This document shows, piece after piece, positions 9,301-13,230 of a stretch of 64,000 nucleotides of DNA (positions are counted from its first letter, which is position 1; each line of letters opens with the position of its first letter). The DNA is from the human T2T-CHM13v2.0 reference genome, Homo sapiens, in assembly GCF_009914755.1 (NCBI RefSeq), contig NC_060946.1; one strand, given 5' to 3'. A model generated the notes under the pieces. The model worked only from the letters and a program-made list of their open reading frames with translations. It made no database searches and was not told the origin of the DNA. The translations under genes and the position numbers were made by a program.

Positions 9301-9911
9301 GTAAAGACATACTGAAACAAGGTGAAGGGGTGTATCTACAATTTACTCTCAAATGACTCAGAGTGCGTGGGAGTGCCCACACACATGCACACAAAGAATG
9401 ATAAAGCAAATGGGGCAAAAGATAAAAAATCGGTGAGCCTGAATCTGGGGTAAAGGGTATTTAGGAGTTCTATCTGGCGGTTCTACAAGAGTGTTCCAGA
9501 GACTCCTATGGGTTCCCTCTAGAGGATCTGAGAGGTCACAGTACATTTATTATACTACTATGACATTTTCATCCTTTTCAGTCACGAGTGAAAAGGAGAT
9601 TTTTCCAGATGCAATATGATGAGTGATGATGTGTACATGAAAATGTGACACTTGGAATATCTGTGTAACTCAGTGAACCAGTATTTTCCAAATACGCTAA
9701 AAAATCATGCATGAGTATGAGTGCAAGGTAGACTAATGGATTTTAACGAAATAGTATCAAGAATTCACTGATATGATTTCAGATTCCACACTGCAATTAA
9801 CCTTTAAGAAACCACCACTTGTTTAAACTGGGGGTAGGATCAAAGAATAGCCACAAGTGGCTGAAAAGACTACTAAAATTTCCCTCCTTTTTCCAGCTAC
9901 ATACCTGTGTG

Positions 9912-10407
9912 AAGAGTTTTCCTCTGGCCATACCACCCTGAACACGCCCGATCTTGTCTGATCTCGGAAGCTAAGCAGGGTTGGCCTGGTTAGTGCTTGG
10001 ATGGGAGGAATAGATCTTGAATTTCATAAATAGCACTCAGACATCTATTTTTAGGCTTATTTGTAAATGTCTTGATAAAATGTCTGATTACTGTTACATA
10101 CTAGGGAAAAATCTCACTTTTTTGTGTGTTATGCTTTTAAGCATAGATTTTGTTTGCTAAAATGTTATTTAGAATTTTGCATGTATTTTTCACTGGCTTG
10201 CGATTTTTCTTTTTATATAACATCTTTTTTAAAGGGTCTTTATTAATATTGCACTCAAGTTTTCTTCTGTTTTCTATGCTCTGAATTCAAGCAGTTAAAA
10301 TCCATGGGAAAGAGTTTTCCTTGACATTTTTGAAGAACTATGCATGTAATATTATATTGATTATTAAATTGATTAAAGCCTGAAAAAAAAAAAAAAGAGT
10401 TTTCCTC
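9912..10407 (+). mobile_element. Chimeric retrotransposed insertion: 5S head, ~375-nt AT-rich body and poly(A), with a 13-bp TSD
   Basis: AAGAGTTTTCCTC at 9912-9924 and 10395-10407. ATTAAA at 10363 and 10372. A-tract at 10383-10396. Confidence 0.85.
9925..10007 (+). pseudogene. 5S rRNA pseudogene (nt ~6-89 of 5S), 5' part of a chimeric retrocopy
   Basis: TGGCCATACCACCCTGAACACGCCCGATCTTGTCTGATCTCGGAAGCTAAGCAGGG...TGGATGGGAG matches mammalian 5S rRNA with about 6 changes, mostly CpG decay. It is 3' truncated. Confidence 0.95.
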
Positions 10408-10559
10408 ATGAACTTAAACCAAAACAACATATTTGACAGACTGAATGCAGAACCAGATGAGAATCCAACTGTCTTCTATTAAGCCAGACATTAAAGAGAC
10501 TTGCAAAAATGAAAACAATGCCACTCTTCTCACTAAAAGGTTGTTTTTCGTTTTGCTTT

Positions 10560-13230
<2,671 letters not shown>

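What the first reader, a model, noticed from the sequence alone, without database searches (positions are those of the whole stretch)
9912..10407. Chimeric retrocopy: 5S rRNA head fused to a foreign polyadenylated 3' end, in one TSD-bounded insertion
Seen in sequence: a perfect 13-bp direct repeat (AAGAGTTTTCCTC) encloses 5S rRNA nt ~6-89, then ~375 nt of unrelated AT-rich sequence, ATTAAA about 15 nt before an A14 tail. Removing the insert restores a continuous Charlie1-like transposon, so both parts arrived in one event. Established: L1 machinery produces small-RNA/mRNA chimeras (U6/L1 is the best-known type) by template switching or prior RNA ligation. Inference: the body is the 3' end of a Pol II transcript from another locus. 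Part of it (~10140-10215) resembles antisense ancient L1 ORF2, so the donor may be a UTR or lncRNA ending in an old L1. A standard annotation would show only a short 5S pseudogene. A Pol III head on a foreign tail is also how new SINE-like elements begin.
Basis: partly seen in the sequence, partly recalled or inferred. Interest (0 to 1): 0.8.

Follow-up and report, generated by a model that had tools for sequence, protein, structure and literature searches.

The report
Retrocopy carrying an embedded 5S pseudogene
This is a young, ordinary LINE-1-made copy of one polyadenylated transcript from chromosome 6 that already contained an old 5S pseudogene, not a fusion of 5S rRNA with a foreign RNA.

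Summary
A perfect 13-bp target-site duplication (9912-9924, 10395-10407) encloses a 5S-like head, an AT-rich body, ATTAAA and a pure A tail, and the insert splits an old interspersed repeat.

The head and body are contiguous genomic DNA at G000:C6:162142849-162143305 (minus strand), which is 456 of 457 bases identical to window 9926-10382. That locus has no A tail. Its flanks are shared with two older paralogues (chr6:154.62M and chr21:30.93M, about 88-90% identical) that carry the same 5S/body junction. The junction occurs at exactly 4 loci in the genome.

All five departures of the head from the chr1 5S gene are the donor pseudogene's own. In the donor, the 5S piece has its own old 15-nt direct repeat, 14 of 15 identical.

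So one donor transcript was copied, with no template switch or RNA ligation. Pol III is implausible because there are 13 T-runs of four or more. Both ATTAAA signals are specific to the donor.

Two points stay open: whether the RNA began at the 5S piece or the copy was 5'-truncated there, and the exact age (1-2 differences in 458 nt). Interest is low to moderate.

The parts
9912..9924 (+). Left copy of the 13-bp target-site duplication AAGAGTTTTCCTC
   Evidence: Exact repeat of 10395-10407. It is part of the host repeat.
9925..10005 (+). 5S-derived segment (5S nt about 6-87), copied from the chr6 donor's 5S pseudogene
   Evidence: Rfam 5S_rRNA, 53.5 bits. The alignment to the chr1 5S gene and the donor shows 4 substitutions and 1 deletion against the gene, all shared with the donor. 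Base 9925 is T against donor C, at a CpG.
10006..10020 (+). Right copy of an older 15-nt direct repeat (AGGAATAGATCTTGA) that brackets the 5S piece at the donor locus. It is a relic of the ancient 5S insertion.
   Evidence: In the donor the two copies are 14 of 15 identical and 99 nt apart, and they are the only direct-repeat family in that 231-nt stretch. The repeat is also seen in L003.
10021..10382 (+). AT-rich body: genomic sequence that lies next to the 5S pseudogene at the donor. It ends at the poly(A) addition site.
   Evidence: Window 9926-10382 is 456 of 457 identical to G000:C6:162142849-162143305 (minus strand). The single mismatch is at 10251, G against A.
10146..10185 (-). Short patch resembling LINE-1 ORF2 in antisense orientation
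   Evidence: It is 93% identical over 40 nt to chr17 locus L007. The antisense frame of L007 matches a family with 35,225 first-look candidates, some lying in open frames of about 1280 aa. The window's own 48-aa frame found no such family and no Pfam family.
10310..10322 (+). Internal 12-of-13 copy of the duplicated target sequence (AAGAGTTTTCCTT). It is present in the donor too.
   Evidence: A same-strand match this good arose in 10 of 20000 Markov-simulated inserts. Unexplained.
10363..10377 (+). Two ATTAAA poly(A) signals (10363-10368 and 10372-10377). The first ends 14 nt before the cleavage site.
   Evidence: The donor has them. Paralogues L003 and L004 carry 23 different bases there and have no ATTAAA or AATAAA.
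10383..10394 (+). Untemplated poly(A) tail. The A-run continues to 10396 into the duplicated target sequence.
   Evidence: At this point the donor continues GTAAGACG with no A-run.
10395..10407 (+). Right copy of the target-site duplication
9597..10555 (.). Old interspersed repeat that was split by the insertion (host sequence 9597-9924 and 10395-10555)
   Evidence: There were 454 first-look candidates, of which the 40 scored gave 42 matches; those other than the window's own locus were 69-88% identical. The flanks are adjacent in 5 of 11 fetched copies.

Best explanation
The insert is a single, non-chimeric retrocopy made by LINE-1 from one polyadenylated RNA. That RNA was almost certainly a Pol II transcript, made from the minus strand of chr6 at about 162.143 Mb (T2T coordinates).

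Proposed history:
1. A 3'-truncated 5S cDNA (about 84 nt) inserted long ago into ordinary genomic DNA and made its own 15-nt duplication.
2. That region was later duplicated, giving copies at chr6:162.14M, chr6:154.62M and chr21:30.93M that are now about 10-12% diverged.
3. In the chr6:162.14M copy only, a small replacement and near-tandem duplication created two ATTAAA hexamers.
4. A transcript that ran through the 5S pseudogene was cleaved and polyadenylated 14 nt after the first ATTAAA.
5. LINE-1 reverse-transcribed it at a nick in an old repeat in a MAPK1 intron. This produced the 13-bp target-site duplication and a 12-14 A tail.

Shown: the donor, the contiguity of head and body, the direction of copying, the untemplated tail, the donor-specific signals, and the single insertion event.

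Inferred: LINE-1 as the enzyme, Pol II as the polymerase, and the order of the older events.

The 5' end of the copy lies 2-6 nt inside the 5S piece. I judge 5' truncation somewhat more likely (about 55%) than a transcription start at the 5S piece (about 35%). The confidence given here is for the plain-retrocopy reading as a whole, whichever way the 5' end arose.
For: - Donor identity: window 9926-10382 is 456 of 457 identical to chr6:162142849-162143305 on the minus strand.
- Donor context: the donor has no A tail or duplicated target site at those borders. It continues on both sides into sequence shared with L003/L009 (88.8% over 2946 nt plus 88.9% over 3703 nt, reaching the end of the fetched 10 kb) and with L004/L010 (90.1% over 1209 nt plus 88.4% over 430 nt).
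- Junction count: a 26-nt probe across the 5S/body junction, allowing up to 3 mismatches, finds 4 loci in the whole genome and 0 with the reversed control pattern.
- Origin of the head: its 4 substitutions and 1 deletion against the chr1 5S gene are all in the donor. Two of them (GTT-GG, AGTGCTT) are private to the donor among the paralogues.
- Old 5S insertion: a 15-nt direct repeat, 14 of 15 identical, brackets the 5S piece in the donor.
- Poly(A) signals: ATTAAA occurs twice in the donor and is absent at the same place in both paralogues.
- Polymerase: 13 runs of four or more T lie between the 5S piece and the poly(A) site.
- Direction of change: at the one certain mismatch (10251) the donor base equals that of the paralogues, so the change arose in the chr22 copy.
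- Single event: the host repeat is continuous across the site in 5 of 11 other copies.
Against: - No expression data were available, so no donor transcript, start site or poly(A) site has been observed.
- The copy's 5' end falls within 2-6 nt of the start of the 5S piece. Random 5' truncation would do that only about 1% of the time for a transcript around 1 kb long.
- The nick site fits the LINE-1 endonuclease consensus poorly. The top strand reads TG/AAGA against TT/AAAA, 4 of 6, and the consensus is recalled from memory, not taken from a call.
- The donor cleavage site coincides with a sequence that looks like a 5' splice site (CTG|GTAAGA). This is unexplained.
- The internal 12-of-13 copy of the duplicated target sequence (10 of 20000 simulations) has no role in this model.
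Confidence: 0.9

Rival explanations
1. The donor RNA really starts at the embedded 5S pseudogene. The 5S piece marks or drives a Pol II transcription start, as the 5S-OT lncRNA does at true 5S genes, and the retrocopy is essentially full length. This is a variant of the best explanation that differs only in how the 5' end arose.
For: The copy starts at 5S nt 6/7, which is 2-6 nt inside the old 5S insertion. A Pol II lncRNA expressed from the 5S rDNA locus (5S-OT, 'overlapping transcript') is described in a review, of which I read passages (PMC5487532).
Against: By eye I saw no TATA-like box at about -30 and no initiator-like sequence at the start. There is no extra 5' G of the kind a reverse-transcribed cap often leaves; the only unmatched base is T at 9925. 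There is only one retrocopy, so the start is not recurrent. No CAGE or 5' RACE data were available.
Confidence: 0.35
2. One reading: a genuine 5S rRNA molecule was joined to the 3' end of an unrelated polyadenylated RNA by LINE-1 template switching or prior RNA ligation, as in U6/L1 and 5S/L1 chimeras.
For: There is one target-site duplication and one A tail around both parts. 5S/LINE-1 chimeras are known; in the preprint 10.1101/2025.02.02.635956 they are 10.5% of 253 candidate chimeras (passages read).
Against: The same junction is contiguous genomic DNA at the donor and in two old paralogues. The head has the donor pseudogene's five changes, not the sequence of the chr1 5S genes. The body is not an L1 3' end. 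In the cited catalogue, 5S parts are mostly antisense to the L1 part, whereas here the 5S part is in sense.
Confidence: 0.02
3. A proto-SINE: Pol III started at the 5S pseudogene's internal promoter, read through to the ATTAAA, and the RNA was polyadenylated and retrotransposed.
For: The 5' end lies at the 5S piece. The central 5S region, where I recall box A and the intermediate element to lie, is intact.
Against: There are 13 runs of T4-T6 on the sense strand before the poly(A) site, the first only 124 nt from the 5' end. The 5S piece stops at about nt 87-89, inside the region I recall as box C. Only 1 retrocopy exists among the 4 junction-bearing loci. The tail is not derived from a LINE.
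Confidence: 0.03
4. An orphan LINE-1 3' transduction: a full-length L1 upstream of the donor read through into the 5S-plus-body region, and a severely 5'-truncated copy retained only the transduced part.
For: It would account for efficient mobilisation in cis of an otherwise unremarkable RNA, and for the arbitrary 5' end.
Against: No open frame longer than 143 aa exists on either strand in the 30 kb around the donor, which includes 14.7 kb upstream. So this assembly has no intact L1 there. Only three copies match the first 250 nt and the last 245 nt of the 991 nt upstream.
Confidence: 0.03

Closest known systems
LINE-1-mediated processed retrocopies of cellular Pol II transcripts (processed pseudogenes; Esnault et al. 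2000, seen only in the reference list read)
   Same: An untemplated A tail after a poly(A) signal, a 13-bp target-site duplication, an identifiable parental locus, and a 5' end that may be truncated.
   Different: The parent is a non-coding stretch with no known gene assigned here. The copy is only 458 nt and includes an old 5S pseudogene, so annotation shows it only as RNA5SP493.
snoRNA retrogenes that carry parental flanking sequence (Weber 2006 appears in the reference list; Luo and Li 2006, PMC1802619, was seen only as a search listing and abstract)
   Same: A sequence resembling a small RNA is retrocopied together with the sequence that flanks it at the parental locus, with an A tail and a target-site duplication. 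It therefore looks like a small-RNA pseudogene with an odd tail.
   Different: Here the small-RNA part was already a dead, truncated pseudogene at the parent, not a functional intronic small-RNA gene.
U6/L1 and 5S/L1 chimeric retrogenes (Buzdin 2002, 2003; Moldovan 2019; preprint 10.1101/2025.02.02.635956)
   Same: A small-RNA-like head and a polyadenylated tail lie inside one target-site duplication.
   Different: In true chimeras the parts come from separate loci and are joined as RNA or cDNA. Here they are adjacent in the parental DNA, and the head is a copy of a pseudogene.
5S-derived SINEs (SINE3, AmnSINE1 and the fruit-bat 5S SINE; references listed)
   Same: A 5S-derived 5' part is followed by unrelated sequence and an A tail.
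   Different: There is a single retrocopy, no LINE-derived tail, and many Pol III terminators in the body.

Membership tests
Small-RNA/L1-type chimeric retrogene (template switch or RNA ligation) | Both parts lie inside one target-site duplication with one 3' A tail | tested here: met
Small-RNA/L1-type chimeric retrogene (template switch or RNA ligation) | The two parts come from different loci, and no genomic locus has them contiguous | tested here: not met
   They are contiguous at chr6:162.14M (456 of 457 identical) and in two paralogues. The junction is found at 4 loci.
Small-RNA/L1-type chimeric retrogene (template switch or RNA ligation) | The head is copied from the functional small RNA | tested here: not met
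   The head has 4 substitutions and 1 deletion against the chr1 5S gene, all identical to the donor pseudogene.
LINE-1-mediated processed retrocopy | Untemplated poly(A) tail directly after a poly(A) signal, absent from the parent | tested here: met
   ATTAAA lies at 10363 and 10372 and the A-run at 10383-10396. The donor continues GTAAGACG.
LINE-1-mediated processed retrocopy | Target-site duplication of about 7-20 bp | tested here: met
   13 bp, perfect.
LINE-1-mediated processed retrocopy | Identifiable parental locus with higher-order context (flanks not copied) | tested here: met
LINE-1-mediated processed retrocopy | Insertion at a LINE-1 endonuclease-type site (TT/AAAA; consensus recalled) | tested here: inconclusive
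   The top strand reads TG/AAGA, 4 of 6.
LINE-1-mediated processed retrocopy | A parental transcript with this 3' end exists | not testable with these tools
   No expression, CAGE or 3'-end data were available.
5S-derived SINE | Many independently inserted copies, each with its own target-site duplication | tested here: not met
   1 retrocopy among 4 junction-bearing loci.
5S-derived SINE | Body that Pol III can transcribe (no internal T-run terminators) | tested here: not met
   13 runs of four or more T.
Orphan LINE-1 3' transduction | Full-length L1 in sense orientation just upstream of the parental sequence | tested here: not met
   The largest open frame in the 30 kb around the donor is 143 aa. 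L1 copies absent from this assembly were not tested.

The most novel reading that the evidence does not exclude
A dead, dispersed 5S pseudogene on chr6 marks the true 5' end of a polyadenylated Pol II transcript. That would be promoter or 5'-end-protecting activity like that of 5S-OT, but outside the 5S rDNA array. This RNA was retrocopied very recently, possibly only in the human lineage. A SINE-like head-plus-tail unit would then have been assembled at the DNA level (old 5S insertion, duplication, newly made ATTAAA) rather than by RNA recombination. A separate point: the 12-nt complementarity between the nicked target strand and an internal site of the RNA (10 of 20000 simulations) could mean that RNA-target pairing influenced where the copy landed.
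Probability: 0.25. Interest if true: 0.5.

Novelty: new member of a known kind. Interest (0 to 1): 0.25.

Why it matters
This is a clean cautionary case. An insertion that has every outward sign of a small-RNA/mRNA chimera turns out to be a plain retrocopy once the parental locus is found. Catalogues of 5S, U6 and similar chimeras should therefore test for a parental locus where the two parts are already adjacent.

It also explains a pseudogene that annotation lists only as RNA5SP493. The copy is near-identical to its parent, which makes it a candidate for a recent, possibly human-lineage retrocopy in a MAPK1 intron.

It shows how a tiny indel that created ATTAAA made one of three paralogues able to yield a polyadenylated RNA, the kind LINE-1 copies.

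Tried and rejected
- RNA-level chimera: rejected by the donor locus.
- Body as a multi-copy transposable element: rejected. Only 6 first-look candidates matched the 375-nt body. The shared flanks are a mosaic of unique DNA and common repeats, so the three genomic copies are a segmental duplication.
- 'GAATA' after GGGAG as the continuation of 5S with an internal deletion: I considered this first, then rejected it in favour of the old 15-nt direct repeat.
- chr4 paralogue (L011, 72% identical from about window 10057 onward) as an empty site for the old 5S insertion: inconclusive. No 5S was detected at E up to 10, but the upstream side is not alignable.
- chr21 copy as an older retrocopy of a longer transcript: no A tail at its 3' border, so not supported.
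- L1 ORF2 patch: the window's own 48-aa antisense frame found no L1-like family in the genome (15 candidates) and no Pfam family. Support comes only indirectly, through the chr17 fragment.
- Orphan transduction: no intact L1 near the donor.
- Host-repeat open frames gave nothing I could use to name the family.
- Literature: a search for 'RNA5SP493' found 1 paper, which only lists the gene name. A search on 5S rRNA, chimeric, template switching, LINE-1 and pseudogenes found 3 papers, 1 listed. I found no description of this locus in these searches.
- The supplementary table of the preprint's 253 chimeras could not be opened (bioRxiv supplements are closed). I therefore cannot say whether this locus is listed there.

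Full report
**What is in the window**

- AAGAGTTTTCCTC occurs exactly at 9912-9924 and 10395-10407. With up to one mismatch, 0.16 matches are expected in the window, and 0 of 100 shuffles reached the three seen.
- Rfam's 5S_rRNA model matches 9920-10010 at 53.5 bits, against a gathering score of 38. The true 5S genes on chr1 score 114.6-115.9 bits.
- There are two ATTAAA hexamers, at 10363 and 10372. The A-run covers 10383-10396.
- The third match is a 12-of-13 copy of the duplicated target sequence, inside the insert at 10310-10322.

**It is a single insertion into an old repeat**

The left flank belongs to an interspersed repeat with 454 first-look candidates; the 40 scored gave 42 matches, and those outside the window's own locus are 69-88% identical. 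I fetched 11 copies. In 5 of them (L013, L015, L017, L018, L020) the stretches matching the left and right flanks abut or overlap by roughly the length of the target-site duplication. In the other 6 the right flank was not found or was not adjacent. So everything between the two copies of the duplicated sequence arrived in one event. I could not verify the name 'Charlie1' because no repeat library was available; from memory the flanks do look like a hAT-Charlie 3' region.

**The donor locus**

- Searching the window's own assembly with the 375-nt body gave a 100% match at chr6:162142849-162143223 on the minus strand. Weaker matches lay at chr6:154.62M (88%), chr21:30.93M (90%) and chr4:169.25M (71%).
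- When the query was extended, all three strong loci matched from 9926 or 9932 onward. That means the match includes the 5S part.
- A global alignment shows window 9926-10382 is 456 of 457 identical to the chr6:162.14M locus. The single mismatch is at 10251 (G against A). Base 9925 is T against donor C, at a CpG.
- At the donor there is no A-run after ...AAAGCCTG. The sequence continues GTAAGACG.
- The 5' side of the donor continues into sequence unrelated to the chr22 flank.

**Head and body are old genomic neighbours**

- The donor's flanks on both sides are shared with the chr6:154.62M locus: 88.8% over 2946 nt and 88.9% over 3703 nt, running to the end of the 10 kb I fetched.
- They are also shared with the chr21 locus: 90.1% over 1209 nt and 88.4% over 430 nt, interrupted by an Alu.
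- The shared region is a mosaic of unique DNA and common repeats. A unit of about 490 nt has 3672 first-look candidates and one of about 570 nt has 968, while the unique parts match only the three copies. This is therefore an old segmental duplication, not a mobile element.
- A 26-nt probe across the 5S/body junction, allowing up to 3 mismatches, hits exactly 4 places in the 3.1-Gb assembly: chr22, the donor, chr21 and chr6:154.62M. The reversed control pattern hits none.
- Only the chr22 copy has an A tail and a target-site duplication.

**The head is a copy of a pseudogene, not of 5S rRNA**

I aligned the head to a chr1 5S gene taken from this genome. The chr22 head differs by four substitutions and a one-base deletion, and the donor has all five. 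Two of them (GTT-GG and AGTGCTT) are private to the donor among the paralogues. A real 5S rRNA captured in an event this recent would not carry them.

**How the 5S got next to the body**

In the donor, the 84-nt 5S piece (5S nt about 3/4 to 87) is bracketed by a 15-nt direct repeat, AGGAATAGCTCTTGA and AGGAATAGATCTTGA. The two copies are 14 of 15 identical, and they form the only direct-repeat family found in that 231-nt stretch. A 12-nt version is seen in the chr6:154.62M paralogue.

This is the signature of an ancient insertion of a 3'-truncated 5S cDNA that predates the duplication. The preprint 10.1101/2025.02.02.635956 (passages read) reports truncation of 5S segments at positions 46 and 90 in 5S/LINE-1 chimeric insertions. 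Window 10006-10020 is the right-hand copy of this old repeat, carried along in the retrocopy.

**Why only this paralogue gave a retrocopy**

Between ...TATATTGA and AAAGCCTGG the donor has TTATTAAATTGATT. This makes a near-tandem 12-nt duplication and both ATTAAA hexamers. The two paralogues have 23 different bases there and no ATTAAA or AATAAA. The cleavage site at 10382 is 14 nt after the first hexamer.

**Which polymerase**

The sense strand has 13 runs of four to six T between the 5S piece and the poly(A) site, the first 124 nt from the 5' end. By established knowledge of Pol III termination (recalled), read-through of all of them is not credible. Signal-dependent cleavage and polyadenylation point to Pol II.

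No open frame above 143 aa exists in the 30 kb around the donor, so this assembly shows no intact L1 that could have transduced the region.

**The 5' end**

The copy begins at 5S nt 6 or 7, which is 2-6 nt inside the old 5S insertion. This is either chance 5' truncation or a real RNA 5' end at the 5S piece.

A review describes a Pol II lncRNA expressed from true 5S genes, 5S-OT (PMC5487532, passages read), so a start there is not absurd. However, I saw no promoter-like motif and no cap-derived G, and I have no expression data. I put truncation at about 55%, a start at the 5S piece at about 35%, and the rest on the minor rivals.

**Age**

There are one certain and one possible difference in 458 nt, a pure A tail, a perfect target-site duplication, and retained CpGs. 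All of these indicate a recent event.

At the certain mismatch the donor agrees with the paralogues, so the change arose in chr22. Taking about 1.2% human-chimpanzee divergence as the yardstick (recalled), about 5.5 differences would be expected if the copy dated to that split. One or two differences suggest a younger copy but do not exclude an origin at that split. No primate genomes were available to test this.

Window 10146-10185 is 93% identical over 40 nt to a chr17 fragment. The antisense frame of that fragment belongs to a family with 35,225 first-look candidates, some within open frames of about 1280 aa. That length fits LINE-1 ORF2 (recalled). The window's own frame did not find that family or any Pfam family. 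The remark is therefore weakly supported, and only for about 40 nt. The body is not an L1 3' end.

**Unexplained**

- The internal 12-of-13 copy of the duplicated target sequence is also in the donor, so it was in the RNA. The 3' end of the nicked bottom strand would pair perfectly with it over 12 nt. Yet the insertion carries the full 3' end and the tail.
- In first-order Markov simulations of the insert, a same-strand match this good arose in 10 of 20000 runs, and a match on either strand in 18 of 20000. The true dinucleotide shuffle timed out.
- I treat this as a coincidence worth a genome-wide check.
- The donor cleavage site also sits on a CTG|GTAAGA motif that looks like a 5' splice site.

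**Verdict**

The element is an ordinary LINE-1-mediated retrocopy of a non-coding chr6 transcript that happens to contain an ancient 5S pseudogene. It is new as an annotated instance and belongs to a known kind. I found no description of this locus in print in my searches.

Noticed in passing
L008/L009 (G000:C6:162138000-162147999 and C6:154617800-154627799): An inverted intrachromosomal duplication on chr6 of at least 6.5 kb at about 89% identity. It runs past the end of the fetched 10 kb. A 1.6-kb third copy lies on chr21 and a 72%-identical relative on chr4.
   Followed up: partly
L004 1815-2130 (chr21 paralogue): An antisense Alu has inserted with its own target-site duplication of about 17 nt (TTTTCCTTGACATTTTC). 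It sits exactly at the paralogue's counterpart of the window's internal motif at 10310-10322, the one that resembles the chr22 duplicated target sequence.
   Followed up: no
L010 5900-6100 (chr21): Homology of the chr21 copy ends abruptly, without an A tail, next to sequence that from memory looks like LINE-1 ORF2. The copy may have been truncated by, or carried with, an L1.
   Followed up: no
L002 2080-2200 (donor, minus strand; about 110-230 nt upstream of the 5S piece): The sequence upstream of the old 5S insertion resembles the 3' half of a MIR element. This is recalled from memory and not tested with a library.
   Followed up: no
window 10548-11500: A cluster of Alu-like elements on both strands just downstream of the insertion. 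Metazoa_SRP partial hits score 53-54 bits, and there are several sub-threshold hits to miRNA families (mir-1268, mir-3135 and others; that these are Alu-derived is recalled).
   Followed up: no
window 10382/10383 and donor chr6:162142849: The poly(A) addition site coincides with CTG|GTAAGA in the donor, a good 5' splice-site look-alike. This may point to an exon end or to intronic polyadenylation.
   Followed up: no
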